In this document: positions 4,561 to 64,000 of the stretch, piece by piece
Layout: every line of letters begins with the position of its first letter
How positions within the stretch are numbered: position 1 is the first letter of the stretch
From: Giardia intestinalis
Lineage: Eukaryota
Assembly (NCBI GenBank): GCA_000002435.2
Contig: CM018792.1
Direction: 5' to 3' (one strand)
Length of the DNA stretch: 64,000 bases
Notes under the pieces: generated by a model
What the model saw: only the letters and a program-made list of their open reading frames with translations
The model's database searches: none
What the model was told of the DNA's origin: nothing
Program-made: the position numbers and the translations under genes

Positions 4561-5113
4561 GCAGTTATGGATCCTAGCTCTGCTGCAGAAGGTGCCTTAT
4601 GAGACGCAGCACAGCTACACCAAGCGGTATCGGGGCTGAACACTCCTTGGGACGGGCTCCTGGCGCATCTGAGAGACGCTCGTTGCTGTGCACTGCCTCT
4701 TGGGCTTTGAATGCACGTTGTGCAGAGCTGCAGGGGTCGCCCTTGCAGTTGTCGGTGGACCGTTGATGGGATCATTGAAAGCTCTGGACCGCTACTGGGC
4801 CGTGTTGTCCCAGTGCACGTGTGGCAGCTTTGGTTCGCACTGGATGGTCCGCAGAGATTGCAACGGAGCCACGAGGTGCACTAATATGACATACACATTG
4901 AGACAACCGCAGTTCTATTCGGCTCAATCCACCTCCTTCTGGCCCTGTGCCGAGATTGCAGATTGCAGAGTAGTGTTCGCGATAGACCCGGTGAGTGTTG
5001 ATTCCATCAGCGCCTGTGGTCAACGTGTGCCAGAAGGATCAATCAACTGCATCAATCAACGCGGATTGACTGATGTACCGCGAGTATGTTCCTACCAATC
5101 TATCAATCGGGCA

Positions 5114-7324: not shown

Positions 7325-7338
7325 CTTAGGTAGTGAAT
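7325..7338 (+). promoter_or_regulatory. Conserved VSP 3' motif/polyadenylation signal (CTTAGGTAGTGAAT; AGTGAAT = AGTRAAY at 7332..7338)
   Basis: Immediately 3' of the TGA; fits the Giardia AGTRAAY polyA signal and the extended VSP 3' motif ACTYAGRTAGTRAAY (recalled from literature). Repeated at 9158-9171, 10991-11004, 12890-12903, 14699-14712, 63830-63843, and as AGTAAAT at 16544-16550. Confidence 0.75.
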
Positions 7339-9157
7339 GCTGTACAGTGATAGTGATAGTGATAGTGCTATGTGGTGTGGGGGTGATAGTGGTGGTGTGG
7401 GACTTTTCTTCATGGGCGGGTGCTACAAGACAGAGAGTCAGCCCGGCAGTGACATATGCACAGCAGCCAGTAATGGAGTATGCACTACTTGTAAGGCAGA
7501 TAACGGCCTGTTCAAGAACCCAGTTACACCTCAGAAGCCTGGTAGCGAGTGCATCCTGTGCTCTGATACTAAGGGAGCAGATGGATATACGGGGGTGGCC
7601 AACTGCCTCAAGTGCACAGAACCAACTAATAGTCCAGGAGCTGCCACGTGCACTGAGTGTCAAGAGGGGTACTATAAAGAGAATAACGAATGCAATCAGT
7701 GTGATCAGTCCTGTCTGACTTGCAGTGGAAGTGGTCCGAATCATTGCACATCCTGTAAGGAGGGGAAGTATCTGAAAAGCGATAATACCTGTTCACCTAC
7801 ATGTGAAGGAAACACTTATGCTGACCCTGTGACAAGGACATGCAAGGAGTCTGGTATAGCAGATTGCACCGCGTGTGAGTACAACACGACTGTCAGCAAG
7901 CCCCAGTGCACCGCCTGTAACAATAAGAAGGTGAAGACAGAGCTGGATGGGACAACCACTTGCGTCGATGATGCTGGGTGCGCAACAGATAACGTCGACG
8001 GATCCCACTTTCTGAGTGATGATAGCACCAAGTGCATATTATGCAGTGATACAACAACAGGAACAGAAGCAAACGACAAGGGGATTGCTAATTGTAAAAC
8101 GTGTAAGAAGAACGGAGCCAAGCCGACCTGCTCAGCTTGCCTCGACGGATACTTTGGTTCTGATACATGCACAGCTTGCGGTGCCAACTGTGCTACATGC
8201 TCTGCTGCTGGCAATGATCAGTGCACTAAATGCAAGCCTGGATTCTTCATGAAACAACCCGGCTCTACTGGTGAGTGTGTTGCTTGCGACAGTAAAGCCG
8301 ACAATGGCATCGAGGGATGCAGTGCATGCACAAACGATGGCGGTGCTTTCAAGTGCACCGATTGCAAGCCCAACTATCGCAAGGAGGGCAGTACTGGCTC
8401 TGTCACATGCACCAAGACCTGTGAAGATGATACTACCTGTGGTGGTACCTCTGGCGCCTGTGATGCCATGATAATAGATGATCAGGGCACCACAAAGCAC
8501 TATTGCTCATACTGTGGGGATAGTTCACAAGCTCCTATCGATGGTCTCTGTGCTACTGATAAGAATGGGAATACTTGTACCAATAATGTCTGTACATCAT
8601 GTACTCAAGGGTACTTCTTGTACATGGACGGCTGTTATAGTACTCAGAGTCAACCTGGTAACCTCATGTGCAAGACAGCTAACAACGGGGTCTGTACAGC
8701 CGTTAATGAGAATAATAAGTACTTCATAGTACCAGAAGCAAAGCCTACTCAGCAGTCTGTACTAGCATGTGGTAACCCATTAGGCACACTAGTAGATACT
8801 AAGGCATATGTGGGGGTGGATGGCTGCTCCCAGTGTACAGCCCCAACAGCTCCATCTGAGGGTGGCATGACCCCCGCTGTGTGTACCTCCTGTGACAGTG
8901 GTAAGAAGCCCAACAGGGATGGCACTGGGTGTGTGACATGCTCTGACACCAACTGCAAGAGCTGTGCGATGGACGGTGTGTGTGGGGAGTGCAACAGTGG
9001 CTTCAGTCTAGACAATGGCAAGTGCGTGTCCACTGGCGCCAACAGGAGCGGGCTCTCCACGGGGGCCATCGCGGGCATCTCCGTCGCCGTGGTCGTCGTC
9101 GTGGGGGGCCTCGTGGGCTTCCTCTGCTGGTGGTTCGTGTGCAGGGGGAAGGCGTGA
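7337..9157 (+). CDS. VSP-family ORF, 5'-truncated cassette (606 aa; no signal peptide; likely pseudogene or silent cassette). Its ATG lies inside the preceding gene's polyA signal
   Basis: Same frame as the head gene. Begins MLYSDSDSDSAMWCGGDSGGVGLFFMGGCYKTESQPG (translation of the microsatellite, then a GGCY module). Ends ...GLSTGAIAGISVAVVVVVGGLVGFLCWWFVCRGKA. Confidence 0.75.
   Translation: MLYSDSDSDSAMWCGGDSGGVGLFFMGGCYKTESQPGSDICTAASNGVCTTCKADNGLFKNPVTPQKPGSECILCSDTKGADGYTGVANCLKCTEPTNSPGAATCTECQEGYYKENNECNQCDQSCLTCSGSGPNHCTSCKEGKYLKSDNTCSPTCEGNTYADPVTRTCKESGIADCTACEYNTTVSKPQCTACNNKKVKTELDGTTTCVDDAGCATDNVDGSHFLSDDSTKCILCSDTTTGTEANDKGIANCKTCKKNGAKPTCSACLDGYFGSDTCTACGANCATCSAAGNDQCTKCKPGFFMKQPGSTGECVACDSKADNGIEGCSACTNDGGAFKCTDCKPNYRKEGSTGSVTCTKTCEDDTTCGGTSGACDAMIIDDQGTTKHYCSYCGDSSQAPIDGLCATDKNGNTCTNNVCTSCTQGYFLYMDGCYSTQSQPGNLMCKTANNGVCTAVNENNKYFIVPEAKPTQQSVLACGNPLGTLVDTKAYVGVDGCSQCTAPTAPSEGGMTPAVCTSCDSGKKPNRDGTGCVTCSDTNCKSCAMDGVCGECNSGFSLDNGKCVSTGANRSGLSTGAIAGISVAVVVVVGGLVGFLCWWFVCRGKA
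7347..7367 (+). repeat. (GTGATAG)3 perfect heptamer microsatellite in the VSP inter-unit junction
   Basis: cagtGATAGTGATAGTGATAGtgc. Identical copy at 12912..12932. Degenerate GGTGATA/GGTGATAG heptamers at 9182-9228, 11015-11058, 14723-14769, 63863-63898. Confidence 0.85.
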
Positions 9158-9220
9158 CTTGGGTAGTGAATGCTGTACAGTGGGTGATAATGGGTGATAG
9201 AAGGTGATAGAGGGTGATAG

Positions 9221-10990
9221 TGGAGTGAGATATGCACACAGGCTAGTGATGGACTGTGCACTGCTTGTAAGGCAGCTAACCAGTACATATTCCAGAACAG
9301 GGCAGAGAGGGTGACCCCTGGTGGGGAGTGCATCCTCTGTCATGATGCCACGGGAGCGAATGAGAACAAAGGAGTGGCTAACTGCCTCAAGTGCACGGCA
9401 CCAGCTAATAGTCCAGGGGCTGCCACGTGTACTGAGTGCATGTCTGGCTTCTCAGGAGACTCGTGTGCTACTCAATGCGGAGGAGACTGTGCCGCCTGTG
9501 ATAAGAGTAACCAAAATCAGTGCACCTCTTGTAAGACTGGGAAGTACCTGAAAGAGAATCAATGTGTGGAAAAAAGTGCATGTAACAACAATCACTACCC
9601 CGATGACACTAGCATGACCTGCGTCGCCTGTAGCACCATACAAGATTGCACAGCATGCACAATGGACCAGTCCACGGGGAAGCCAAAGTGCACTAACTGC
9701 GGTGCCAGTAAGATCCCCAGGACGACTCTCGACGGAACCTCGACCTGCGTGACAAAAGGGTATGATCAGTGTCAAGGCACAGATAAGGAGCTGTTCATGA
9801 AGGAGGACCAATCGGCGTGCTTATTATGCGGAGACAATACTGAGGATACATCTGAGTCCAATAAAAACCAGGGAACTCCTAATTGCAAGACCTGTACCAA
9901 GACAGCATCCACTAAACCGGTCTGTGAGACGTGCAAGGATGGCTTCTTCTTTAATACTGGTGATAAGACATGTACAAACAAGTGCGATGCCACCTGCAAG
10001 ACGTGCTCTGCTGCTACAGATGCTAACCGATGCTTAACTTGTATGCCCGGATACTTCCCCATCGATAGTACAGATCAACAAGGGAAGAAGTGCGTCCCAT
10101 GCGATAGTGTGGACGACAAGGGTCGCGAAGGGTGCAGTGTCTGCTCTAACAATGGTGGATTCAAGTGTACTGAATGTAAGGTGAACTATAAGAAGCAGTC
10201 CAATGGAGATGCAGGGGATGACTATACATGTGTGAAGACTTGTGAAGACCCCACGGCTTGTGGTGGGACCTCTGGCGCCTGCGATGCTATAGTAATCGAC
10301 AATGATGGAGTAGAGCATCATTACTGTTCTTATTGTGGAAATCAAGGAGATGTACCAATCAATGGTATATGCACCAGCTCACTTGCAAGTAATACCTGCG
10401 CCGATGGTGTCTGCAAGTCTTGTGCTCAAGGGTACTTTATGTATATGGGAGGGTGCTATGATGTGTCGAAGGCTCCTGGTAGTCACATGTGCAAGAAAGC
10501 AGATAACAATGGGATATGCACAGAGGCGGCAAGTAATAGGTACTTCGTAGTCCCTGGGGCACAGACCACTGATCAGTCTGTATTAGCCTGTGGCAACCCC
10601 CTAGGCACACTAGTAGGCACTCAAGGTACCGCTAAGGCATACGTGGGGGTGGATGGCTGCTCACAGTGCACAGCCCCAGCAGGTCTGTCTGAGGGTGGCA
10701 TGACCCCCGCTGTCTGTACCTCCTGTGACAATAGTAAGAAGCCCAACAAGGATGGCAGCGGGTGTGTGCTGTGCTCTGACACCAACTGCAAGAGCTGTGT
10801 GATGGACGGTGTGTGTGGGGAGTGCAACAGTGGCTTCAGTCTAGACAATGGTAAGTGTGTGTCCTCTGGCGCCAACAGGAGCGGGCTCAGCACGGGCGCC
10901 ATCGCGGGGATCTCCGTGGCTGTCATCGCTGTCGTGGGGGGCCTCGTGGGCTTCCTCTGCTGGTGGTTCGTGTGCAGGGGGAAGGCGTGA
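9221..10990 (+). CDS. VSP-family 5'-truncated cassette (VSP-like frame opens at 9221 after the last in-frame junction stop; track ORF 9311..10990, 559 aa; no ATG or signal peptide at the 5' end)
   Basis: ICTQASDGLCTACKAANQYIFQN...TPGGECILCHDATGANENKG..., ends ...ISVAVIAVVGGLVGFLCWWFVCRGKA. Near-identical to 14762..16531. Confidence 0.75.
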   Translation, partial: WSEICTQASDGLCTACKAANQYIFQNRAERVTPGGECILCHDATGANENKGVANCLKCTAPANSPGAATCTECMSGFSGDSCATQCGGDCAACDKSNQNQCTSCKTGKYLKENQCVEKSACNNNHYPDDTSMTCVACSTIQDCTACTMDQSTGKPKCTNCGASKIPRTTLDGTSTCVTKGYDQCQGTDKELFMKEDQSACLLCGDNTEDTSESNKNQGTPNCKTCTKTASTKPVCETCKDGFFFNTGDKTCTNKCDATCKTCSAATDANRCLTCMPGYFPIDSTDQQGKKCVPCDSVDDKGREGCSVCSNNGGFKCTECKVNYKKQSNGDAGDDYTCVKTCEDPTACGGTSGACDAIVIDNDGVEHHYCSYCGNQGDVPINGICTSSLASNTCADGVCKSCAQGYFMYMGGCYDVSKAPGSHMCKKADNNGICTEAASNRYFVVPGAQTTDQSVLACGNPLGTLVGTQGTAKAYVGVDGCSQCTAPAGLSEGGMTPAVCTSCDNSKKPNKDGSGCVLCSDTNCKSCVMDGVCGECNSGFSLDNGKCVSSGANRSGLSTGAIAGISVAVIAVVGGLVGFLCWWFVCRGKA

Positions 10991-11059
10991 CTTGGGTAGT
11001 GAATGCTGTACAGTGGGTGATAATGGGTGATAGAAGGTGATAGAGGGTGATAATGGAGT

Positions 11060-12889
11060 GTGATATGTACAGCAGCCAGTGATGGAGTGTGCACTGCTTG
11101 TAACACAGCTAACCAGTACATATTCCAGAACAAGGCTACGACAGTGACCCCTGGTGGGGAGTGCATCCTCTGTCATGATGCCACGGGAGCGAATGAGAAC
11201 AAAGGAGTGGCTAACTGCCTCAAGTGCACGGAACCAAGTGGTAGTCCAGGAGCTGCCACGTGTACAGAGTGTCAAGCAGGGTACTATAAAGATGGTAACG
11301 GTGCATGTGTCAAATGTAATGAAGCTTGTCTGACTTGCAGCGGTGAGGGCGCAACTAAGTGCACCCTCTGTGCGGGCGAGAAGTATCTCGATGGGAATAA
11401 TTGTGTAGATGCTAGCAGTTGTAATGGAGATAAGTACCCCAACCCAAGCACTGGGAAGTGCACAGCTTGTAACGCTGGAGCAGATCAGGGGGGCATACCA
11501 GAGTGCACTGCTTGCACGTACAATGCAAAGCTACAGAAGCCGGTGTGCAGTGCCTGTAACGGTAAGAAGGTGAAGACAGAGCTGGATGGGACAACAACCT
11601 GTGTCGATGATGCTGGGTGCAAAAAAGACAGCACACACTTTGTTGACGATGATAATACTATGTGTGTTCTGTGCAGCGATACCAGCGGAAACGAGCCAAA
11701 TAAGAACAAGGGACTCAAAGGCTGTAAGGCATGTACTAAGCAGTCCAGTAGTCCCCCCACGTGTACCGGATGCTTACCCGGATATTACGATTCCGGCTCG
11801 TTTGTTTGTGAGCTCTGCACAGGGAACTGTGCCACCTGCGAAGGTGCTAATGCTAACCAGTGCCAAACCTGCAAGCCGGGATACTTCCTGAAAGGAGGCC
11901 AAGCACCTGCGGAGTGTGTCGCCTGTGATAGCACCGCCGATAACGGAGTCCCCGGCTGCGCAACATGCACCTTTGATACCATACTAACATGCGACTCCTG
12001 CAAGCCCGACTACAAGCTAACAGGGACTGGGTGTCAAAAGGTCTGTGAGGACACAACGGGGTGTGGTGGTACCTCTGGCGCTTGTGATGCCACAGTGATC
12101 GATGCTAATGGAAAGGAGCTTCACTACTGTTCCTATTGTGGAGAGAGTGGTAAGTATCCTATCGATGGGAAGTGTGTTGATAACGCTCAAAGTAATCAAT
12201 GCGCTGATGGTGTATGTACACAGTGTGCTCAAGGGTACTTTATGTACATGGGCGGGTGCTATAGCACTACCAATGCTCCTGGTAAGTCCATGTGCAAGAC
12301 AGCTGAAGGTGGCAAGTGCACAGCTGCTAATGAGAATAATAGGTACTTCGTAGTACCAGGGGCATCCAACACTGATCAGTCTGTACTAGCATGTGGTAAC
12401 CCATTAGGCACACTAGTAGGCACTAGTAATACTGCTAAGGCATACGTGGGGGTCGAGGGCTGCTCACAGTGTACGGCCCCAGCAGCTCTGTCTGATGGTG
12501 GTATGACTGCTGCTATATGCACTTCTTGTGACAATAGTAAGAAGCCCAACAAGGATGGCAGTGGGTGCTTCACATGTACCATCGATGGATGCTCGCACTG
12601 CAATAGAGACAACATGTGCGAGGCATGTAGTGATGGTAAGAAGGTGAGCCCTGGGAGGAAGTCATGCGTGGATGGCTGCCCCAGCAACTCCACTGATGAT
12701 AACTCTGTCTGTGTGTGCAACGATGGGTACAGCCCTGATGATGCTGGGGCCTCCTGTGTGTCCTCTGGCGCCAACAGGAGCGGGCTTTCCACGGGGGCCA
12801 TAGCGGGGATCTCCGTCGCTGTCATCGCTGTCGTGGGGGGCCTCGTGGGCTTCCTCTGCTGGTGGTTCATATGTAGAGGGAAGGCGTGA
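11060..12889 (+). CDS. VSP-family 5'-truncated cassette (609 aa; GTG alt-start in track, no ATG or signal peptide)
   Basis: VICTAASDGVCTACNTANQYIFQNKATTVTPGGECILCHDATG..., ends ...ISVAVIAVVGGLVGFLCWWFICRGKA. Same frame as the others. Confidence 0.75.
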   Translation: MICTAASDGVCTACNTANQYIFQNKATTVTPGGECILCHDATGANENKGVANCLKCTEPSGSPGAATCTECQAGYYKDGNGACVKCNEACLTCSGEGATKCTLCAGEKYLDGNNCVDASSCNGDKYPNPSTGKCTACNAGADQGGIPECTACTYNAKLQKPVCSACNGKKVKTELDGTTTCVDDAGCKKDSTHFVDDDNTMCVLCSDTSGNEPNKNKGLKGCKACTKQSSSPPTCTGCLPGYYDSGSFVCELCTGNCATCEGANANQCQTCKPGYFLKGGQAPAECVACDSTADNGVPGCATCTFDTILTCDSCKPDYKLTGTGCQKVCEDTTGCGGTSGACDATVIDANGKELHYCSYCGESGKYPIDGKCVDNAQSNQCADGVCTQCAQGYFMYMGGCYSTTNAPGKSMCKTAEGGKCTAANENNRYFVVPGASNTDQSVLACGNPLGTLVGTSNTAKAYVGVEGCSQCTAPAALSDGGMTAAICTSCDNSKKPNKDGSGCFTCTIDGCSHCNRDNMCEACSDGKKVSPGRKSCVDGCPSNSTDDNSVCVCNDGYSPDDAGASCVSSGANRSGLSTGAIAGISVAVIAVVGGLVGFLCWWFICRGKA

Positions 12890-12901
12890 CTTAGGTAGTG
12901 A

Positions 12902-14698
12902 ATGCTGTACAGTGATAGTGATAGTGATAGTGCTATGTGGTGTGGGGGTGATAGTGGTGGTGTGGGACTTTTCTTCATGGGCGGGTGCTACAAGACAGAG
13001 AGTCAGCCCGGCAGTGACATATGCACAGCAGCCAGTAATGGAGTATGCACTACTTGTAAGGCAGATAACGGCCTGTTCAAGAACCCAGTTACACCTCAGA
13101 AGCCTGGTAGTGAGTGCATCCTGTGCTCTGATACGACAGATAGAAACGGGGTCATGGGAGTCGCTGGATGCTCAGAATGCTCCCACACGGGCACTAGCGG
13201 ACCGGCCACGTGTACAGAGTGTCAAGCAGGGTTCGTTACGAAGGACAGTGCATGTGTGAAGTGCGGAGACGGCTGCTCTGCTTGCTCAGCTGATACTCCG
13301 ACTCAGTGTACCGCCTGCGTTGAGGGGAAGTACTTGAAGGGTGGTAACACTTGTGTAGATGCTGGTGGATGTGACAATGGTAACTATGCGGACAAGAAGA
13401 CCTGGACCTGTAAGGCCTGCAGTGAGATACAAGGATGCACCGCGTGTGCATACGACGACGCCACGGGAAAGCCGAAGTGCACCGACTGCGGTAGTAAGAC
13501 GGTCAGAGACGAGCTGGATGGGACAACGACCTGTGTTGATGAGGCCGAGTGCAAAGTGGGCAAGACGCACTTCTACGACGCCTCGAAGTGCGTGCAGTGC
13601 GGCGACAATGGTAAGGGCGGAGTCCAGAACTGCAAGCTGTGCACCGCAAAAGGCACCTGCGAGGCTTGTGTCGACGGGTATAAAGTCAACGGAAACGCCT
13701 GCGAGGCCTGCACAGGAAACTGCGCAGAGTGCGGAACAGCGGGTCAAATCAACACATGTACAAGATGCATGCCGGGGTACTTCCTTAAGGATGGCCCGCC
13801 TAAGACATGCGTTCTCTGTGATGACGAGACAAGTGGGATTCCAGGCTGTGCCGAGTGCACAGGCGGCGTGGGGTCCCTCAAATGCACTGAATGTAAGCCC
13901 AACTACAGACCCAGCGGAGAACCTAGCGACCTCACATGTACAAAGACCTGCGAGGATGAGACGGCGTGTGGGGGTACCTCTGGCGCTTGTGATGCCACAG
14001 TGATCGATGCTAATGGAAAGGAGCTTCATTACTGTTCATACTGTGGAGAGAGTGGTAAGTATCCTATCGATGGGAAGTGTGTTGATAATGCTCAAAGTAA
14101 TACTTGTAACAACCATGTATGTACATCATGTGCTCAAGGGTACTTCTTGTATATGGGAGGTTGTTACAAGGTTGATACAGTACCTGGCAACTATATGTGC
14201 AAGGCATCAAGTAAGGAGGGGATATGCACAGAGGCAGCCAACAATAGGTACTTCGTAGTCCCTGGGGCACAGACCACTGATCAGTCTGTACTAGCATGTG
14301 GTAACCCATTAGGCACACTAGTAGGCACTCAAGGTACCGCTAAGGCATACGTGGGGGTGGATGGCTGCTCACAGTGCACAGCCCCAGCAGGTCTGTCTGA
14401 GGGTGGCATGACCCCCGCTGTCTGTACCTCCTGTGACAATAGTAAGAAGCCCAACAAGGATGGCAGCGGGTGTGTGCTGTGCTCTGACACCAACTGCAAG
14501 AGCTGTGTGATGGACGGTGTGTGTGGGGAGTGCAACAGTGGCTTCAGTCTAGACAATGGTAAGTGTGTGTCCTCTGGCGCCAACAGGAGCGGGCTCAGCA
14601 CGGGCGCCATCGCGGGCATCTCCGTCGCCGTGGTCGTCGTCGTGGGGGGCCTCGTGGGCTTCCTCTGCTGGTGGTTCGTGTGCAGGGGGAAGGCGTGA
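12902..14698 (+). CDS. VSP-family 5'-truncated cassette (598 aa), a mosaic: 5' region equals unit 7337-9157, middle equals unit 11060-12889, 3' region equals units 9221-10990 and 14762-16531
   Basis: Its first about 80 aa and its junction are identical to unit 2. The block CEDETACGGTSGACDATVIDANGKELHYCSYCGESGKYPIDGKCVDNAQSN is shared with unit 4. The C-terminal about 130 aa are shared with units 3 and 6. CRGKA tail. Confidence 0.75.
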   Translation: MLYSDSDSDSAMWCGGDSGGVGLFFMGGCYKTESQPGSDICTAASNGVCTTCKADNGLFKNPVTPQKPGSECILCSDTTDRNGVMGVAGCSECSHTGTSGPATCTECQAGFVTKDSACVKCGDGCSACSADTPTQCTACVEGKYLKGGNTCVDAGGCDNGNYADKKTWTCKACSEIQGCTACAYDDATGKPKCTDCGSKTVRDELDGTTTCVDEAECKVGKTHFYDASKCVQCGDNGKGGVQNCKLCTAKGTCEACVDGYKVNGNACEACTGNCAECGTAGQINTCTRCMPGYFLKDGPPKTCVLCDDETSGIPGCAECTGGVGSLKCTECKPNYRPSGEPSDLTCTKTCEDETACGGTSGACDATVIDANGKELHYCSYCGESGKYPIDGKCVDNAQSNTCNNHVCTSCAQGYFLYMGGCYKVDTVPGNYMCKASSKEGICTEAANNRYFVVPGAQTTDQSVLACGNPLGTLVGTQGTAKAYVGVDGCSQCTAPAGLSEGGMTPAVCTSCDNSKKPNKDGSGCVLCSDTNCKSCVMDGVCGECNSGFSLDNGKCVSSGANRSGLSTGAIAGISVAVVVVVGGLVGFLCWWFVCRGKA

Positions 14699-14761
14699 CT
14701 TGGGTAGTGAATGCTGTACAGTGGGTGATAATGGGTGATAGAAGGTGATAGAGGGTGATAG

Positions 14762-16531
14762 TGGAGTGAGATATGCACACAGGCTAGTGATGGACTGTGC
14801 ACTGCTTGTAAGGCAGCTAACCAGTACATATTCCAGAACAAGGCTACGACAGTGACCCCTGGTGGGGAGTGCATACTGTGCCATGATGCCACGGGAGCGA
14901 ATGAGAACAAGGGAGTGGCTAATTGCCTCAAGTGCACGGCACCAGCTAATAGTCCAGGGGCTGCCACGTGTACTGAGTGCATGTCTGGCTTCTCAGGAGA
15001 CTCGTGTGCTACTCAATGCGGAGGAGACTGTGCCGCCTGTGATAAGAGTAACCAAAATCAGTGCACCTCTTGTAAGACTGGGAAGTACCTGAAAGAGAAT
15101 CAATGTGTGGAAAAAAGTGCATGTAACAACAATCACTACCCCGATGACACTAGCATGACCTGCGTCGCCTGTAGCACCATACAAGATTGCACAGCATGCA
15201 CAATGGACCAGTCCACGGGGAAGCCAAAGTGCACTAACTGCGGTGCCAGTAAGATCCCCAGGACGACTCTCGACGGAACCTCGACCTGCGTGACAAAAGG
15301 GTATGATCAGTGTCAAGGCACAGATAAGGAGCTGTTCATGAAGGAGGACCAATCGGCGTGCTTATTATGCGGAGACAATACTGAGGATACATCTGAGTCC
15401 AATAAAAACCAGGGAACTCCTAATTGCAAGACCTGTACCAAGACAGCATCCACTAAACCGGTCTGTGAGACGTGCAAGGATGGCTTCTTCTTTAATACTG
15501 GTGATAAGACATGTACAAACAAGTGCGATGCCACCTGCAAGACGTGCTCTGCTGCTACAGATGCTAACCGATGCTTAACTTGTATGCCCGGATACTTCCC
15601 CATCGATAGTACAGATCAACAAGGGAAGAAGTGCGTCCCATGCGATAGTGTGGACGACAAGGGTCGCGAAGGGTGCAGTGTCTGCTCTAACAATGGTGGA
15701 TTCAAGTGTACTGAATGTAAGGTGAACTATAAGAAGCAGTCCAATGGAGATGCAGGGGATGACTATACATGTGTGAAGACTTGTGAAGACCCCACGGCTT
15801 GTGGTGGGACCTCTGGCGCCTGCGATGCTATAGTAATCGACAATGATGGAGTAGAGCATCATTACTGTTCTTATTGTGGAAATCAAGGAGATGTACCAAT
15901 CAATGGTATATGCACCAGCTCACTTGCAAGTAATACCTGCGCCGATGGTGTCTGCAAGTCTTGTGCTCAAGGGTACTTTATGTATATGGGAGGGTGCTAT
16001 GATGTGTCGAAGGCTCCTGGTAGTCACATGTGCAAGAAAGCAGATAACAATGGGATATGCACAGAGGCGGCAAGTAATAGGTACTTCGTAGTCCCTGGGG
16101 CACAGACCACTGATCAGTCTGTATTAGCCTGTGGCAACCCCCTAGGCACACTAGTAGGCACTCAAGGTACCGCTAAGGCATACGTGGGGGTGGATGGCTG
16201 CTCACAGTGCACAGCCCCAGCAGGTCTGTCTGAGGGTGGCATGACCCCCGCTGTCTGTACCTCCTGTGACAATAGTAAGAAGCCCAACAAGGATGGCAGC
16301 GGGTGTGTGCTGTGCTCTGACACCAACTGCAAGAGCTGTGTGATGGACGGTGTGTGTGGGGAGTGCAACAGTGGCTTCAGTCTAGACAATGGTAAGTGTG
16401 TGTCCTCTGGCGCCAACAGGAGCGGGCTCAGCACGGGCGCCATCGCGGGGATCTCCGTGGCTGTCATCGCTGTCGTGGGGGGCCTCGTGGGCTTCCTCTG
16501 CTGGTGGTTCGTGTGTAGAGGGAAGGCGTAG
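14762..16531 (+). CDS. VSP-family 5'-truncated cassette, near-identical duplicate of 9221..10990 (track ORF 14852..16531 encodes the identical 559-aa product); terminal unit of the array
   Basis: ORF-track proteins for 9311..10990 and 14852..16531 are identical. Ends CRGKA + TAG, then AGTAAAT polyA signal (16544..16550). No further junction follows. Confidence 0.75.
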   Translation, partial: WSEICTQASDGLCTACKAANQYIFQNKATTVTPGGECILCHDATGANENKGVANCLKCTAPANSPGAATCTECMSGFSGDSCATQCGGDCAACDKSNQNQCTSCKTGKYLKENQCVEKSACNNNHYPDDTSMTCVACSTIQDCTACTMDQSTGKPKCTNCGASKIPRTTLDGTSTCVTKGYDQCQGTDKELFMKEDQSACLLCGDNTEDTSESNKNQGTPNCKTCTKTASTKPVCETCKDGFFFNTGDKTCTNKCDATCKTCSAATDANRCLTCMPGYFPIDSTDQQGKKCVPCDSVDDKGREGCSVCSNNGGFKCTECKVNYKKQSNGDAGDDYTCVKTCEDPTACGGTSGACDAIVIDNDGVEHHYCSYCGNQGDVPINGICTSSLASNTCADGVCKSCAQGYFMYMGGCYDVSKAPGSHMCKKADNNGICTEAASNRYFVVPGAQTTDQSVLACGNPLGTLVGTQGTAKAYVGVDGCSQCTAPAGLSEGGMTPAVCTSCDNSKKPNKDGSGCVLCSDTNCKSCVMDGVCGECNSGFSLDNGKCVSSGANRSGLSTGAIAGISVAVIAVVGGLVGFLCWWFVCRGKA

Positions 16532-58869: not shown

Positions 58870-59775
58870 ATGAAGAAGTCCGAAGCTCTAGTGCCCACCC
58901 TGCACTGGTGCCCAGCCGGCTACAACCCCACAATTGAAGTCATCTCTCATTGGGCACTTGCCACACAAGGCAAGAAGAGCAGAGGGGATCCAGGGCGTAC
59001 AATCCGTGTTTGGTGCGCTATCTGGATGATCTGTAAACAATACCGTGAATCGCAAGCTTACCAGTACACGCGTTTCCTTTGTGACCATGGAATAAAAATG
59101 TCGTCTACAGATTATTCAGGTCAATTCCTTCAGGAGCACGACTGCGCCCCACCCCTCATGTCTGAGAAGAACACCGACGATGAGTATACGAGCGAAGACA
59201 GTCCCACCGAGTCTTCAGAGATGGATGGTGAAGATGGCGTGGACGAGGACGGCGTCACTGAGCTCATGAAGGCGGCCAGACGAAACGACGTAGATGCAGT
59301 GAAGCGCTATATTCCTCAGCAGGCGGGAATGGTGGCGAAGTTTTTCAGGGCAAGGATGGTAGATATACACGGGGGGACGGCCCTGATGGTCGCCGCGGTG
59401 CTTGGACACGCTGAGGTGGTGAAGCTGCTGATGAAGCACGAGAGCCGCATGAGGAGCAGCAATGAGTACACGGCCCTCATGTGGGCGACAGCCAACGAGC
59501 GTATCGAGGTTGTGAGGCTACTCCTGGATGCTGAGGGCTGCATGGAGAGGGACAGGGGCTTTACTGCCCTCACAATTGCAGCATACTTTGGTTGTTTGGA
59601 CTGTGTCAAAGTGCTGTTGGAGAAGGAGAAGTACATAAGCAGCAGGTCTGCTCTTTGCGTAGCTGATATGAATGGTCACCCCGAGGTGGTGTCTCTTCTC
59701 AAGAGTGAAGGCGTTGGACTGGAGGAGCCCCGTCTACGGATGCCGCCCAGAAAGCCCGTGAGTGAACGCGCCTAA
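58870..59775 (+). CDS. Ankyrin-repeat protein (Giardia 'protein 21.1'-like)
   Basis: At least four ANK repeats: GGTALMVAAVLGHAEVVKLLMKH, NEYTALMWATANERIEVVRLLLDAEG, GFTALTIAAYFGCLDCVKVLLEK, MNGHPEVVSLLKSEG. The true ATG may be internal. Confidence 0.6.
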   Translation: MKKSEALVPTLHWCPAGYNPTIEVISHWALATQGKKSRGDPGRTIRVWCAIWMICKQYRESQAYQYTRFLCDHGIKMSSTDYSGQFLQEHDCAPPLMSEKNTDDEYTSEDSPTESSEMDGEDGVDEDGVTELMKAARRNDVDAVKRYIPQQAGMVAKFFRARMVDIHGGTALMVAAVLGHAEVVKLLMKHESRMRSSNEYTALMWATANERIEVVRLLLDAEGCMERDRGFTALTIAAYFGCLDCVKVLLEKEKYISSRSALCVADMNGHPEVVSLLKSEGVGLEEPRLRMPPRKPVSERA

Positions 59776-60077: not shown

Positions 60078-61374
60078 ATGGACACTGCCTTGTCTGGGTC
60101 TGCAACAACAGCTGTCAGTGTCCCACCGTTCACCCCTAGGGAGGTTCATGAGCGGTTAGGTGATGTGCTTAATGAAAACACCATGGGGACAGTCTACTCT
60201 CTCAAAGCTATCTGGGCCTCGCTGTAAAGGTCATTCAGCTTGGAGACCTGGACAAGGATGACGTGGAAATCATCAGACTAGAGCTGACCACCCTCCCCGA
60301 CCTCTCCAACCCAGGGGTTCTCAGGCACCACCAGGTGCTTACGGACGAGGGCTTCACCTACATCGTCATAGACCGCCACGACAAGACCCTCGAGCGCCTC
60401 CTTATAGAGCACAAACGAAGGAAGACTCTCATCCCTATCGCTGTGATCCTCTCCGCCATGAAGCAGGTCGCTGCCGCCCTCGCCTACCTCCACGGCCTCA
60501 GCGAGGTAAGTGCTAACAGGCTTGTCCACCGCGACCTCAGGCCTACCAGCATCCTTATCAGCGCAGACGGAGAGCGCTTCGTCATTGCTGATTTCGGCCT
60601 CTGTAAGGACGCCCTGTGGAGTGGGAGCACTCTCATGGGAATAATGGCGTACATGGCCCCCGAGGTGCTCCTCCGTAATGAGACCAGCCCTGCTTCCGAC
60701 GTGTGGAGCCTCGGGGTCATCCTCTACGAGATGGCCACTCTAAGGAAACCGGACTTCCTAGAAGGTAAAGACCCAGCAGAGGTCTTCGTGACGGGTGGAG
60801 GCCGGACCTGAGCGGTGTCACTGATGGCTTCATAAAGAGTGTTCTGGAGAGGATACTCGTGCTGGAGCCAGAGAGGAGGCCGATGGTCAGGGAGCTGCAC
60901 GAGACGCTCGCTACATTCGACATCCCAGTTAGTGAGCTGGGGCATCGGTGTGTGGCGCTAGAGGACAAGTGCAGCGCCTTGGAGACTGCGATGAGTAATA
61001 TTAATGACAGGATTGCTATTCTTGAGGCGGCCCTCGAGAGCAAGCCGACCAGGGACCGCGCCGAGCTCTGGATGCATCGATGGAGAGGAGCTCTTAGTAT
61101 GTTATCCACAACCAGCCATCGTCTCCGGACGGTCGAGAAGTGGGCGCAGCTTACCCATGAGACCTCTGAGCGCACCTGCAGGCGGGCCCAGCGATACAGC
61201 GACAGCAATGTACAGGAGTGCGCCCCGAACAATCACTCCACAAAGGTGCGTTCTGAGTCTGGCCCTCACCGATCCTGTTCCTATCGAAGCCAGGGGGAAC
61301 TGCGCTATCAGCCGACCTCTGGTGGGTGTGCTCCTATCTTGTCCTTCTCCAGTACAACTGATCAAGGAGAGTAA
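60078..61374 (+). pseudogene. Frameshifted NEK-like protein kinase, a paralogue of 50929..51855, with two -1 frame changes (near 60197-60227 and near 60793-60808)
   Basis: Segment 1 (frame 0, ATG 60078): ...VHERLGDVLNENTMGTVYSLKA then stop. Segment 2 (track ORF 60263..60811): ...LAVKVIQ...HRDLRPTSILI..DFGLCKD..APEVL..WSLGVILYE...AEVFVTGG then stop. Segment 3 (track ORF 60859..61374): GWRPDL...LVLEPERRPMVREL plus coiled coil. The joined sequence is collinear with the GC-rich kinase. Shift sites fall in a (CT)3 run and a GGG run. Confidence 0.5.
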
Positions 61375-61447
61375 GAGCGGCTGTCTCTCACTGCTCGCGG
61401 CAACACACCAGCCTGACGGAAGAGCAGTGGCACGTGTACTCCGGCTA

Positions 61448-63829
61448 ATGTTGGTAGGATTTCTCCTAGTTTGTGCAACCGTGCTGGCAAAGGACACCGG
61501 GAAGACCGCATGCGAGCTTTCCAACACAGAATGCGCCCAAAACCTGAAGGACGCGGGCTGCAAGACGTGCGTCGGGACGGAGCCTGACCAGACGTGCACT
61601 GAGTGTACAGATCCCTCCCACAATGTACAGATTGACAAGAAGAGTTGCGACGCCAACTGCCCGGAGCACGCCGCGGCCAACTCGAAAGTGTGCGGGTGCG
61701 TCGCTGGGTACCAGCCGACTCCCGGGCAGAACCAGTGCGAGCTTTCCAACACAGAATGCGCCCAAAACCTGAAGGACGCGGGCTGCAAGACGTGCGTCGG
61801 GACGGAGCCTGACCAGACGTGCACTGAGTGTACAGATCCCTCCCACAATGTACAGATTGACAAGAAGAGTTGCGACGCCAACTGCCCGGAGCACGCCGCG
61901 GCCAACTCGAAAGTGTGCGGGTGCGTCGCTGGGTACCAGCCGACTCCCGGGCAGAACCAGTGCGAGCTTTCCAACACAGAATGCGCCCAAAACCTGAAGG
62001 ACGCGGGCTGCAAGACGTGCGTCGGGACGGAGCCTGACCAGACGTGCACTGAGTGTACAGATCCCTCCCACAATGTACAGATTGACAAGAAGAGTTGCGA
62101 CGCCAACTGCCCGGAGCACGCCGCGGCCAACTCGAAAGTGTGCGGGTGCGTCGCTGGGTACCAGCCGACTCCCGGGCAGAACCAGTGCGAGCTTTCCAAC
62201 ACAGAATGCGCCCAAAACCTGAAGGACGCGGGCTGCAAGACGTGCGTCGGGACGGAGCCTGACCAGACGTGCACTGAGTGTACAGATCCCTCCCACAATG
62301 TACAGATTGACAAGAAGAGTTGCGACGCCAACTGCCCGGAGCACGCCGCGGCCAACTCGAAAGTGTGCGGGTGCGTCGCTGGGTACCAGCCGACTCCCGG
62401 GCAGAACCAGTGCGAGCTTTCCAACACAGAATGCGCCCAAAACCTGAAGGACGCGGGCTGCAAGACGTGCGTCGGGACGGAGCCTGACCAGACGTGCACT
62501 GAGTGTACAGATCCCTCCCACAATGTACAGATTGACAAGAAGAGTTGCGACGCCAACTGCCCGGAGCACGCCGCGGCCAACTCGAAAGTGTGCGGGTGCG
62601 TCGCTGGGTACCAGCCGACTCCCGGGCAGAACCAGTGCGAGCTTTCCAACACAGAATGCGCCCAAAACCTGAAGGACGCGGGCTGCAAGACGTGCGTCGG
62701 GACGGAGCCTGACCAGACGTGCACTGAGTGTACAGATCCCTCCCACAATGTACAGATTGACAAGAAGAGTTGCGACGCCAACTGCCCGGAGCACGCCGCG
62801 GCCAACTCGAAAGTGTGCGGGTGCGTCGCTGGGTACCAGCCGACTCCCGGGCAGAACCAGTGCGAGAAGGCCCCTAACACGCAGTGCAATACTCCCAACT
62901 GCAAGACCTGTGACAACCCCAAAACAGACAACGAAATCTGCACCGAATGTAATGATGGCAACTACCTCACCCCGACAAAGCAGTGCACGCAGAGCTGCGG
63001 AACAATAGGAAGCTACTATGATGGAGACAAAGCGTGCGAGCCTTGTGATCCTAGCTGTGCTGGGTGCACCACAAAGGGGCCAGCGAAGTGCACGCTGTGT
63101 CCTCCCGGGAAGAGGCTCCAGTACACCAATGATGATCCTAATCAAGGTGGATCTTGTGTAGATGAGTGCAAAGCAGAGATGGACGGGTGTGCAGAGTGTG
63201 GAGCGATAATCGGCGGTACGAAGTACTGTTCAAAATGCAAGGAAGATAAGTGGGCACCTCAGAATGGCGTGTGCGCTAATTCAGTAACAAGGAATTCATT
63301 CTGCACGAACGCAGCAGGTGGTGTATGCACTCAGTGTGCTGCAGATCATTTCCTTCAAGATGGCGGTTGCTACAAACTCGGCAGACAGCCTGGTGTCCAG
63401 ATATGTGCAGCGGCGGGTCCCAATAGCCTGTGTACTACGTGCGTAAATGGACAGAGACCAGATACCAATACTGGAGCCTGTCCTGTGTGTCCAACAGGCT
63501 GTGACACATGTACAGGGACATCCTCGCGGGCGCCCGAATGCCAATCTTGCCTTCTGGGATACTATTTCGATTCTGATAAAAAACTGTGTGTGAAATGTAC
63601 CGAGAATAGTAGTGCTATTCAAGGTGTTAGCAGCTGTGTGAGCTGCGCTCCTCCATCTAACAATCAAGGATCTGTCGTCTGCTACCTCATAAATGATAGC
63701 GGTAGCACAAACAAGAGTAGCGGGCTCTCCACGGGGGCCATAGCGGGGATCTCCGTTGCTGTGGTCGTTGTTGTGGGGGGTCTCGTAGGGTTCCTTTGCT
63801 GGTGGTTCCTCTGCCGGGGCAAGGCGTGA
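61448..63829 (+). CDS. Variant-specific surface protein (VSP, 793 aa) containing six perfect 75-aa tandem repeats
   Basis: Signal peptide MLVGFLLVCATVLA at ATG 61448 (the track ORF from 61004 is an upstream in-frame extension). CXXC-rich. C-terminus NKSSGLSTGAIAGISVAVVVVVGGLVGFLCWWFLCRGKA + TGA + CTTAGGTAGTGAAT. Confidence 0.9.
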   Translation: MLVGFLLVCATVLAKDTGKTACELSNTECAQNLKDAGCKTCVGTEPDQTCTECTDPSHNVQIDKKSCDANCPEHAAANSKVCGCVAGYQPTPGQNQCELSNTECAQNLKDAGCKTCVGTEPDQTCTECTDPSHNVQIDKKSCDANCPEHAAANSKVCGCVAGYQPTPGQNQCELSNTECAQNLKDAGCKTCVGTEPDQTCTECTDPSHNVQIDKKSCDANCPEHAAANSKVCGCVAGYQPTPGQNQCELSNTECAQNLKDAGCKTCVGTEPDQTCTECTDPSHNVQIDKKSCDANCPEHAAANSKVCGCVAGYQPTPGQNQCELSNTECAQNLKDAGCKTCVGTEPDQTCTECTDPSHNVQIDKKSCDANCPEHAAANSKVCGCVAGYQPTPGQNQCELSNTECAQNLKDAGCKTCVGTEPDQTCTECTDPSHNVQIDKKSCDANCPEHAAANSKVCGCVAGYQPTPGQNQCEKAPNTQCNTPNCKTCDNPKTDNEICTECNDGNYLTPTKQCTQSCGTIGSYYDGDKACEPCDPSCAGCTTKGPAKCTLCPPGKRLQYTNDDPNQGGSCVDECKAEMDGCAECGAIIGGTKYCSKCKEDKWAPQNGVCANSVTRNSFCTNAAGGVCTQCAADHFLQDGGCYKLGRQPGVQICAAAGPNSLCTTCVNGQRPDTNTGACPVCPTGCDTCTGTSSRAPECQSCLLGYYFDSDKKLCVKCTENSSAIQGVSSCVSCAPPSNNQGSVVCYLINDSGSTNKSSGLSTGAIAGISVAVVVVVGGLVGFLCWWFLCRGKA
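61511..62860 (+). repeat. Six perfect head-to-tail copies of a 225-bp (75-aa) coding repeat inside the VSP
   Basis: Unit CELSNTECAQNLKDAGCKTCVGTEPDQTCTECTDPSHNVQIDKKSCDANCPEHAAANSKVCGCVAGYQPTPGQNQ begins at 61511, 61736, 61961, 62186, 62411, 62636. The copies show no visible nucleotide divergence (minus-strand ORF translations are also perfectly periodic). Confidence 0.9.
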
Positions 63830-64000
63830 CTTAGGTAGTGAATGCTGTACAATGTGTGATAGAAGGTGATAGTGGGTGATAGTGTGATAATGGAGTGTGA
63901 TATGTACAGCAGCCAGTGATGGAGTGTGCACTGCTTGTAACACAGCTAACCAGTACATATTCCAGAACAAGGCTACGACAGTGACCCCTGGTGGGGAGTG
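63830..64000 (+). other. VSP junction module (3' motif + heptamer repeats) followed by the start of another 5'-truncated VSP cassette running off the right edge
   Basis: The sequence after 63829 is near-identical to junction 10991-11170 (..GGTGATAG.. repeats, then SVICTAASDGVCTACNTANQYIFQNKATTVTPGGEC). Confidence 0.7.

What the first reader, a model, noticed from the sequence alone, without database searches (positions are those of the whole stretch)
61511..62860. Six perfect 225-bp tandem repeats inside a VSP coding region
The 75-aa unit CELSNTECAQNLKDAGCKTCVGTEPDQTCTECTDPSHNVQIDKKSCDANCPEHAAANSKVCGCVAGYQPTPGQNQ is repeated six times with no visible nucleotide differences. Absence of even synonymous divergence implies very recent expansion or strong concerted evolution. 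Repeat-number change would alter ectodomain length and epitope valency without changing the TM/CRGKA anchor.
Basis: seen in the sequence. Interest (0 to 1): 0.55.

Follow-up and report, generated by a model that had tools for sequence, protein, structure and literature searches.

The report
Known tandem repeats in Giardia VSP
The six identical 225-base repeats are real, but they lie in an already annotated surface-antigen gene of the parasite Giardia (GL50803_0050181), where such repeat arrays are a well-documented, ordinary feature.

Summary
Bases 61511-62866 are exactly periodic at 225 bp, giving six whole copies plus 6 bases with no mismatch. The array lies in frame in a 793-aa variant-specific surface protein (VSP) gene at 61448-63829 (+).

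The protein is 100% identical to XP_037901999.1 / KAE8303970.1, which is GL50803_0050181 on chromosome 4 of the Giardia intestinalis WB-C6 long-read reference genome. A 2022 preprint already tabulates its repeats.

I infer it is vsp95 ("TR225") of the 2010 WB catalogue. A three-unit model reproduces that entry's length, mass, cysteine count, cysteine percentage and CXXC count exactly. So the older Sanger assembly held three units where this one holds six. I cannot tell whether that reflects assembly collapse or real copy-number variation.

Paralogous VSPs carry arrays of 2-21 units of the same 74-76-aa, 10-cysteine module. Units are identical within a gene but only 41-65% identical between genes. 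This pattern fits amplification and homogenisation by unequal recombination or slippage.

Verdict: real, ordinary, already known, low interest.

The parts
61448..63829 (+). Complete VSP gene (793 aa plus stop): GL50803_0050181 / XP_037901999.1 / KAE8303970.1. Inferred to be vsp95 of Adam et al. 2010.
   Evidence: ORF. Pfam VSP E = 6e-81. 793/793 identity to P0121. Accessions. Gene id, NC_051859.1, 2382 nt / 793 aa / 102 Cys / 26 CXXC in the preprint's supplementary table. vsp95 match.
61446..61452 (+). TAATGTT initiator-like element spanning the start codon
   Evidence: Read directly from the sequence. Listed as 'taatgtt' for this gene in the preprint's table and as TAATGTT for vsp95.
61448..61489 (+). 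Signal peptide MLVGFLLVCATVLA. A 7-aa linker, KDTGKTA, follows at 61490-61510.
   Evidence: Translation. The preprint's table gives this signal peptide. The same 14 residues begin P0002, P0010, P0123 and P0126.
61511..62860 (+). Six identical, in-frame 225-bp units. Each encodes a 75-aa module with 10 Cys and 2 CXXC motifs.
   Evidence: All 10 Cys are invariant across units of six paralogues.
62861..62866 (+). TGCGAG, a 6-nt partial seventh copy. The same hexamer starts the array, so the unit boundaries are ambiguous by 6 nt.
62861..63736 (+). Non-repeat cysteine-rich ectodomain. It is 90-100% identical in 40-aa segments to the paralogue vsp23 (GL50803_101496, P0122) and shows a mosaic identity pattern against other VSPs. 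Its first ~70 aa align to the repeat unit at only 29% identity, which is too weak to establish homology.
63737..63826 (+). Transmembrane segment AIAGISVAVVVVVGGLVGFLCWWFL followed by the cytoplasmic tail CRGKA (63812-63826)
63828..63847 (+). Conserved VSP 3' element GACTTAGGTAGTGAATGCTG. It contains AGTGAA (63837-63842), which resembles the Giardia polyadenylation signal.
   Evidence: Sequence. The same 20-mer is listed for this gene in the preprint's Table S6. It is conserved after the other VSPs of the window. The polyadenylation role rests on my background knowledge.
61157..61447 (+). 5' flank shared with paralogous loci. Its in-frame translation is 85/111 identical to the N-terminal extension of P0126 and 61/95 identical to that of P0004. 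It is probably a non-coding promoter or 5' region, not part of the protein.
   Evidence: The reference annotation starts the protein at 61448.
63830..64000 (+). Conserved inter-VSP spacer, then the start of an ATG-less VSP-like ORF that runs off the window. The repeat gene therefore heads a linear VSP array.
   Evidence: 94% identical to the spacer after the VSP ending at 10990. Frame translation. vsp95 is flagged as first in a linear array.

Best explanation
This is the tandem-repeat domain of an ordinary, already annotated Giardia intestinalis (assemblage A, WB-C6) VSP gene, GL50803_0050181 on chromosome 4.

Shown: the ectodomain begins with six identical copies of a 75-aa module with 10 cysteines, followed by a 322-aa part made of a non-repeat cysteine-rich region, a transmembrane helix and CRGKA.

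Inferred: the array arose, and is kept homogeneous, by unequal homologous recombination between misaligned units, or by replication slippage. Recombination could occur between sister chromatids or among the four genome copies (tetraploidy per PMC7048089). Each event adds or removes whole 225-bp units, so it stays in frame. It changes ectodomain length and the number of copies of one epitope set, and leaves the signal peptide, membrane anchor and flanking control sequences untouched.

Inferred from the cysteine pattern and a structure model: each unit is a self-contained disulfide-rich module, so copy number is structurally tolerated, like beads on a string.
For: - Exact array.
- VSP hallmarks: Pfam VSP E = 6e-81; 102 Cys and 26 CXXC; transmembrane segment and CRGKA; TAATGTT at the start and the conserved 3' element.
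- Identity: 793/793 to XP_037901999.1 / KAE8303970.1 on the 2.76-Mb chromosome, which is GL50803_0050181 on NC_051859.1, with repeat-motif counts of 6 in the preprint's Table S2.
- Family pattern: paralogues P0001, P0002, P0003, P0005, P0006, P0010 and P0124 carry 2-21 copies of 74-76-aa units, with 0-1 mismatching positions between successive copies. Units are 41-65% identical between genes, all 10 Cys are invariant, and single-copy forms exist in P0122, P0126 and P0127.
- Copy number differs between records. A model of the 148-aa upstream extension plus three units gives 716 aa, 74.5 kDa, 78 Cys, 10.9% Cys and 20 CXXC, exactly the vsp95 entry (TR225, chromosome 4, TAATGTT, first in a linear array) of Adam et al. 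2010.
- Three other repeat VSPs also differ in unit number between records.
- Literature: 30 WB vsp genes contain repeats of 105-516 bp; copy numbers may be condensed by assembly; alleles of vspA6 and vspC5 differ in copy number; the vspA6 repeats are immunodominant (PMC2996952).
- AlphaFold model of two units: pLDDT 85 but pTM 0.50, with lower confidence at the unit boundary. The best PDB matches are furin-like cysteine-rich repeats (R-spondin Fu1-Fu2, E = 5.5e-3), then EGFR and insulin-receptor cysteine-rich domains.
Against: - No reads were available, so I cannot verify that all four genome copies carry exactly six units.
- I also cannot verify that the perfect identity is untouched by consensus polishing. 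The reference assembly was corrected with Illumina reads (PMC7000408), which map ambiguously inside a repeat.
- The recombination or slippage mechanism is inferred from the pattern, not observed.
- I found no expression or antigenicity data for this particular gene.
- The fold matches are weak (E >= 5e-3, TM <= 0.35).
- The vsp95 identification rests on matching numbers in a table, not on an alignment of sequences.
Confidence: 0.93

Rival explanations
1. Assembly artefact. The copy number, or the perfect identity of the copies, was produced by assembly or polishing and is not in the genome. In that case the true locus has fewer, more, or slightly diverged units.
For: The 2010 catalogue entry that fits this gene has three units and this sequence has six. 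Adam et al. warn that repeat numbers may be condensed by assembly. The reference assembly was corrected with short reads, which could homogenise minor differences between copies.
Against: The array is only 1.35 kb, which PacBio reads should span easily. Two independent assemblies both show multiple tandem copies. At least seven paralogues, including older GenBank records such as AS7 and CRP65, show the same perfect arrays at the protein level. No N bases or breaks occur in or near the array. Collapse in the older Sanger assembly is the more likely artefact, and it would make six the better estimate.
Confidence: 0.05
2. The array is a single, very recent amplification that is now static. On this reading there is no ongoing homogenisation or copy-number turnover, and the 3-versus-6 difference is purely collapse in the old assembly.
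For: Single-copy relatives of the module exist (P0122, P0126, P0127), so each gene could have amplified its own unit independently and recently. Zero divergence is what a young duplication looks like.
Against: Every repeat-bearing paralogue examined is equally perfect despite copy numbers from 2 to 21. That would require many independent, equally recent bursts. Three other repeat VSPs differ in unit number between independent records, including cloned GenBank sequences. Allelic copy-number variation is published for vspA6 and vspC5.
Confidence: 0.2
3. The gene is a non-functional pseudo-VSP, and the repeats are neutral junk in an unexpressed array member.
For: It sits at the head of a linear array whose downstream members lack start codons. 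Xu et al. class 208 such genes as pseudo-VSPs. I found no paper mentioning this gene id.
Against: The reading frame is intact over 2382 nt. The gene has an ATG inside a TAATGTT initiator, a signal peptide, a transmembrane segment with CRGKA, and the conserved 3' element. Both the reference annotation and the 2022 preprint class it as a VSP, not a pseudo-VSP.
Confidence: 0.05

Closest known systems
vsp95 of Adam et al. 2010 (BMC Genomics 11:424), which I infer is the same gene as GL50803_0050181 / XP_037901999.1 in the 2020 WB-C6 reference
   Same: I infer it is the same gene. The protein here is 793/793 identical to the reference entry. For vsp95 the catalogue gives a 225-nt repeat, chromosome 4, TAATGTT and first place in a linear array. 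Its length, mass, Cys count, Cys percentage and CXXC count are reproduced exactly by a three-unit version with the upstream ATG.
   Different: There are three units in the 2010 record and six here. The 2010 model starts at an upstream in-frame ATG (61004), and the current model starts at 61448.
vspA6 / CRP170 (vsp67) and its relatives A6-S1 and A6-S2
   Same: The layout is the same: a short leader, then in-frame tandem repeats, then about 1.3 kb of non-repeat sequence and the conserved 3' end. A near-identical paralogue (A6-S1) has only about one unit, as vsp23 does here. Alleles differ in copy number, and the repeats are immunodominant (PMC2996952).
   Different: The unit is 195 bp with about 23 copies and an unrelated sequence. 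Copy-number variation and antigenicity have been shown experimentally for vspA6 but not for this gene.
CRP65 / CRP136 family (vsp27, vsp130; AAB06228.1 = P0010; VSP136-3 = P0125)
   Same: The signal peptide is identical (MLVGFLLVCATVLAKD...). The unit is a homologous 10-Cys module of 76 aa in CRP65, in perfect tandem copies. The same gene cluster shows 1, 4 and 21 units in different records.
   Different: The unit is only 41% identical to the one here, and the C-terminal region differs (28-95% by segment).
vsp23 = GL50803_101496 (XP_001709308; P0004 / P0122), chromosome 5
   Same: It is the closest paralogue. The non-repeat ectodomain and anchor are 90-100% identical in 40-aa segments, and the 5' flank is related.
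   Different: It has one truncated copy of the module (62 aa, 62% identical) and no array.
Tandem-repeat surface antigens of other pathogens (from my own background knowledge)
   Same: Examples are the Plasmodium circumsporozoite protein and streptococcal M and alpha-C proteins. The logic is the same: in-frame, highly homogeneous repeats whose number changes by recombination or slippage, altering size and epitope valency.
   Different: These are unrelated proteins, mostly with short, low-complexity units. Here the unit is a 75-aa disulfide-rich module, and antigenic variation works mainly by switching between VSP genes.

Membership tests
Giardia variant-specific surface protein (VSP, Pfam PF03302) | Significant match to the VSP profile | tested here: met
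   PF03302 E = 6.3e-81, 272.7 bits against a cut-off of 31.4. 386 homologues were found, and every named one among the 120 listed is a Giardia VSP or high-cysteine protein.
Giardia variant-specific surface protein (VSP, Pfam PF03302) | N-terminal signal peptide | tested here: met
   The hydrophobic leader MLVGFLLVCATVLA is shared with other VSPs. It is recorded as a predicted signal peptide for this gene in the preprint's supplementary table. I ran no signal-peptide predictor myself.
Giardia variant-specific surface protein (VSP, Pfam PF03302) | Cysteine-rich ectodomain (about 11-13% Cys) with many CXXC motifs | tested here: met
   102 Cys (12.9%) and 26 CXXC motifs.
Giardia variant-specific surface protein (VSP, Pfam PF03302) | C-terminal transmembrane helix followed by the invariant CRGKA tail | tested here: met
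   ...AIAGISVAVVVVVGGLVGFLCWWFLCRGKA*.
Giardia variant-specific surface protein (VSP, Pfam PF03302) | Initiator-like TAATGTT or CAATGTT at the start, and the conserved 3' element with AGTGAA after the stop | tested here: met
   TAATGTT at 61446-61452 and GACTTAGGTAGTGAATGCTG at 63828-63847.
Giardia variant-specific surface protein (VSP, Pfam PF03302) | One-at-a-time surface expression with switching | not testable with these tools
   This needs expression data from cloned trophozoites. No paper mentions the gene id.
Tandem-repeat-containing VSPs (vspA6, vspC5, CRP65/CRP136, AS7 type) | In-frame head-to-tail repeats of 105-516 bp in the ectodomain, directly after a 66-99 bp leader | tested here: met
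   A 63-bp leader (61448-61510) is followed by 6 x 225 bp in frame. The ranges come from PMC2996952.
Tandem-repeat-containing VSPs (vspA6, vspC5, CRP65/CRP136, AS7 type) | Units essentially identical within a gene but distinct between genes | tested here: met
   0 mismatches within this gene. 0-1 mismatching positions within seven paralogues. 41-65% identity between genes. A search with the unit alone found only two distant relatives at about 60% identity.
Tandem-repeat-containing VSPs (vspA6, vspC5, CRP65/CRP136, AS7 type) | Copy number varies between alleles or isolates | tested here: inconclusive
   Three units in the 2010 catalogue entry against six here. Collapse in the Sanger assembly cannot be separated from real variation without reads.
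Tandem-repeat-containing VSPs (vspA6, vspC5, CRP65/CRP136, AS7 type) | Repeats are an immunodominant target | not testable with these tools
   Reported for vspA6 only (PMC2996952).

The most novel reading that the evidence does not exclude
The 3-unit and 6-unit versions could both be real alleles or subclone variants of GL50803_0050181 within the tetraploid WB line. Under this reading the array is turning over on laboratory time-scales. The unit's high GC3 (0.79 against 0.52 in the rest of the same gene) might then be a footprint of frequent recombination with GC-biased repair. This would make the locus a convenient natural reporter of mitotic recombination between Giardia's genome copies.
Probability: 0.25. 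Interest if true: 0.3.

Novelty: already known. Interest (0 to 1): 0.1.

Why it matters
It matters little beyond housekeeping. Repeat arrays in VSPs affect antigen size and epitope valency, and they are a known weak point of Giardia assemblies.

The one useful by-product is that the unit count for this gene, and for at least three other repeat VSPs, differs between the 2010 catalogue, older GenBank records and the 2020 long-read reference. Published VSP sizes and repeat numbers should therefore be treated as assembly-dependent until checked with spanning reads.

Tried and rejected
- Looking up the encoding contig for the window protein, P0004, P0121 and P0122 returned nothing. I could not fetch DNA of paralogous or orthologous loci, so comparisons between genes are at the protein level only.
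- A search with two units alone found only two distant relatives. This unit sequence is specific to this gene in that database.
- A metagenome scan for the unit-to-unit junction found no hits.
- No other copy of the unit exists in the window. blastn gave only 13-23-nt chance matches, and tblastn gave one weak VSP hit.
- The Pfam KARI_N match (E = 2e-8, no stretch passing on its own) is a summed artefact of six identical units. I rejected it.
- The 941-aa ORF starting at 61004, and the 619-aa and 559-aa minus-strand ORFs through the array, are mechanical consequences of bacterial-style ORF calling and of a stop-free periodic sequence. I rejected them as genes. The reference annotation starts the protein at 61448.
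- No solved structure is related by sequence.
- The two classic papers on VSP repeat copy number (PMC308127 and PMC186261) are not held. I cite them only through Adam et al. 2010.
- The phage, plasmid, E. coli and bacterial-genome collections were not searched, because this is a eukaryotic parasite gene.
Full report
**1. The observation**

Tandem Repeats Finder reports a single array in the whole window, at 61511-62866. It has period 225, 6.0 copies, 100% matches and no indels. A direct comparison shows 0 mismatches in each of the six 225-bp units between 61511 and 62860. Exact periodicity continues for 6 more bases (TGCGAG) to 62866, and the next 225 bases differ at 153 positions.

**2. The gene**

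The array lies in frame in an ORF that ends ...GFLCWWFLCRGKA* at 63829.
- From the ATG at 61448 the protein is 793 aa, with 102 cysteines (12.9%) and 26 CXXC motifs.
- It matches Pfam VSP (PF03302) at E = 6e-81.
- The start codon sits inside TAATGTT (61446-61452).
- The stop is followed by GACTTAGGTAGTGAATGCTG. The other VSPs of the window carry this element too, and a published table lists it for this very gene.
- The 941-aa ORF from 61004 listed is an upstream in-frame extension that the current annotation does not use.

**3. Identity**

The protein is 793/793 identical to P0121, which is KAE8303970.1 / XP_037901999.1, a VSP of Giardia intestinalis on a 2,761,001-bp contig. The supplementary tables of bioRxiv 10.1101/2022.03.07.483299 give it as GL50803_0050181 on NC_051859.1, chromosome 4. 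They record 2382 nt, 793 aa, 'taatgtt', 102 Cys, 26 CXXC, signal peptide MLVGFLLVCATVLA, the transmembrane segment and CRGKA. Their tandem-repeat table shows motif counts of 6 for this gene. The window therefore corresponds to the PacBio-based WB-C6 reference genome (PMC7000408), or to an identical sequence. The repeat has already been catalogued.

**4. Link to the older catalogue**

Additional file 1 of Adam et al. 2010 (PMC2996952) lists vsp95 with these properties: a linear-array gene that is first in its array, a 225-nt tandem repeat, chromosome 4, TAATGTT, 716 aa, 74.5 kDa, 78 Cys, 10.9% Cys and 20 CXXC.

I built a model from the window's upstream ATG (a 148-aa extension) plus only three units. 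It gives exactly 716 aa, 74.5 kDa, 78 Cys, 10.9% and 20 CXXC, and no other unit number fits.

The neighbouring entries also match. vsp92, vsp93 and vsp94 (852, 606 and 516 aa, with their masses, Cys and CXXC counts) equal the window ORFs at 4766-7324, 7337-9157 and 9440-10990. vsp103 and vsp104 equal those at 11660-12889 and 12902-14698.

So I infer that this gene is vsp95, and that the Sanger-era assembly held three units where the long-read assembly holds six. The authors themselves warned that arrays may have been condensed by assembly.

**5. The family pattern**

The closest relatives are other Giardia VSPs.
- Seven of them (P0001, P0002, P0003, P0005/AS7, P0006, P0010/CRP65 and P0124) carry arrays of 2.1 to 21.2 copies of 74-76-aa units. 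Successive copies differ at 0 or 1 position in total.
- Aligned units share all ten cysteines and a few other residues, but they are only 41-51% identical to the window's unit.
- Single-copy versions in P0122 (vsp23), P0126 and P0127 are 62-65% identical to it.
- Searching with the unit alone finds nothing closer.
- Perfect identity within a gene against deep divergence between genes is the classical signature of amplification and homogenisation by unequal recombination or slippage. It agrees with the statement that each repeat-bearing vsp has its own repeat sequence.

Downstream of the array the protein is 90-100% identical in 40-aa segments to vsp23 on chromosome 5. It shows a mosaic pattern against AS7, P0001, P0006 and P0012. 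This fits the recombination among vsp genes that Adam et al. described. The 5' flank (about 61157-61447) is also shared with paralogous loci.

**6. Copy number is record-dependent in general**

Three other repeat VSPs reproduce catalogue entries exactly once units are removed:
- P0003 minus one unit equals vsp165.
- AS7 (GenBank, five units) minus one unit equals vsp21.
- CRP65 (P0010, four units) minus three units equals vsp27.

A member of the CRP65 cluster in the 2020 assembly has 21 units. With these tools I cannot tell how much of this is assembly collapse and how much is real variation. Allelic copy-number variation has been published for vspA6 and vspC5. Long-read work also finds structural variants enriched at VSP loci within isolates (PMC7048089).

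**7. How it most likely works**

Shown:
- The unit is 3 x 75 nt, so it stays in frame.
- The unit has an even number of cysteines (10), all conserved.
- The array sits between the leader and the non-repeat ectodomain.
- The anchor and the flanking control elements lie outside the array.

Modelled: AlphaFold on two units, with six paralogous rows in the alignment, gives pLDDT 85 but pTM 0.50, with a confidence dip at the unit boundary. This suggests well-defined modules with an undefined mutual orientation. The best PDB matches, all weak, are furin-like cysteine-rich repeats: R-spondin Fu1-Fu2 at E = 5.5e-3, then the cysteine-rich domains of EGFR/HER3 and the insulin receptor. This agrees with the SMART hits reported in the preprint.

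Inferred:
- Misaligned recombination, or slippage, between identical units adds or deletes whole modules.
- Each such event changes ectodomain length by 75 aa (7.8 kDa) and changes the valency of one epitope set.
- By analogy with vspA6, the repeats may dominate the antibody response.

**8. Rivals**

- An assembly artefact cannot be excluded without reads, but it is unlikely for a 1.35-kb array in a PacBio assembly. It would more plausibly explain the three-unit record than the six-unit one.
- A single recent, static amplification remains possible.
- A pseudogene reading is contradicted by the intact gene features and by the annotation.

**9. Verdict**

It is already known and of low interest.

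**10. Seen in passing**

- The window holds a six-member linear VSP array at 4766-16531 with a near-identical internal duplication.
- The repeat gene is itself followed by the conserved array spacer and an ATG-less VSP-like ORF.
- A kinase gene just upstream is split over three reading frames.
- The unit's GC3 is 0.79 against 0.52 in the rest of the gene.

Noticed in passing
window 4766-16531 (+): A linear array of six VSP or pseudo-VSP ORFs (852, 606, 516, 409, 598 and 516 aa), all ending in CRGKA. The first five match vsp92-94 and vsp103-104 of the 2010 catalogue by length, mass and Cys counts. The copies at 9440-10990 and 14981-16531 are 1547/1551 identical, which indicates a recent segmental duplication inside the array.
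   Followed up: partly
window 63830-64000 (+): Directly after the repeat gene's stop comes the conserved inter-VSP spacer, 94% identical to the one after 10990. A VSP-like ORF without a start codon follows (...CTACNTANQYIFQNKATTVTPGGE) and runs off the window. The repeat gene therefore heads another linear array, and the next member is probably a pseudo-VSP.
   Followed up: partly
window ~60100-61374 (+): A protein-kinase homologue is split over three reading frames. It matches Pfam Pkinase at E = 1e-28 but covers only profile positions 45-196 of 263. The N-lobe-like, core and C-terminal pieces each lie in a different frame. It is either a kinase pseudogene or carries residual long-read frameshift errors. 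Its 3' tail overlaps the conserved 5' flank of the VSP.
   Followed up: partly
window 61511-62860 versus 62861-63826: The repeat unit has much higher GC (0.61) and GC3 (0.79) than the rest of the same gene (0.52 and 0.52) and than the other VSPs in the window (GC3 0.52-0.66). This could reflect a different origin of the module or GC-biased repair during frequent recombination. I did not test either idea.
   Followed up: no
window 61102-62961 (-) and 61466-63145 (-): Two long antisense ORFs (619 and 559 aa) run through the array. They exist only because a stop-free 225-bp unit is repeated six times. They are not evidence of genes.
   Followed up: yes
window 58870-59775 (+): A 301-aa ankyrin-repeat protein (Pfam Ank_2 E = 4e-27) lies upstream. 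It is typical of the Giardia ankyrin-repeat (protein 21.1 / ARP) family, which clusters with NEK kinases and VSPs.
   Followed up: no
proteins P0003, P0005, P0010 and P0124 (not in the window): Other repeat-bearing VSPs differ in unit number between records. P0003 minus one unit equals vsp165. AS7 (five units) minus one unit equals vsp21. CRP65 (four units) minus three units equals vsp27, and a member of its cluster has 21 units in the 2020 assembly. Repeat numbers in VSP catalogues therefore depend on the assembly or the clone.
   Followed up: partly
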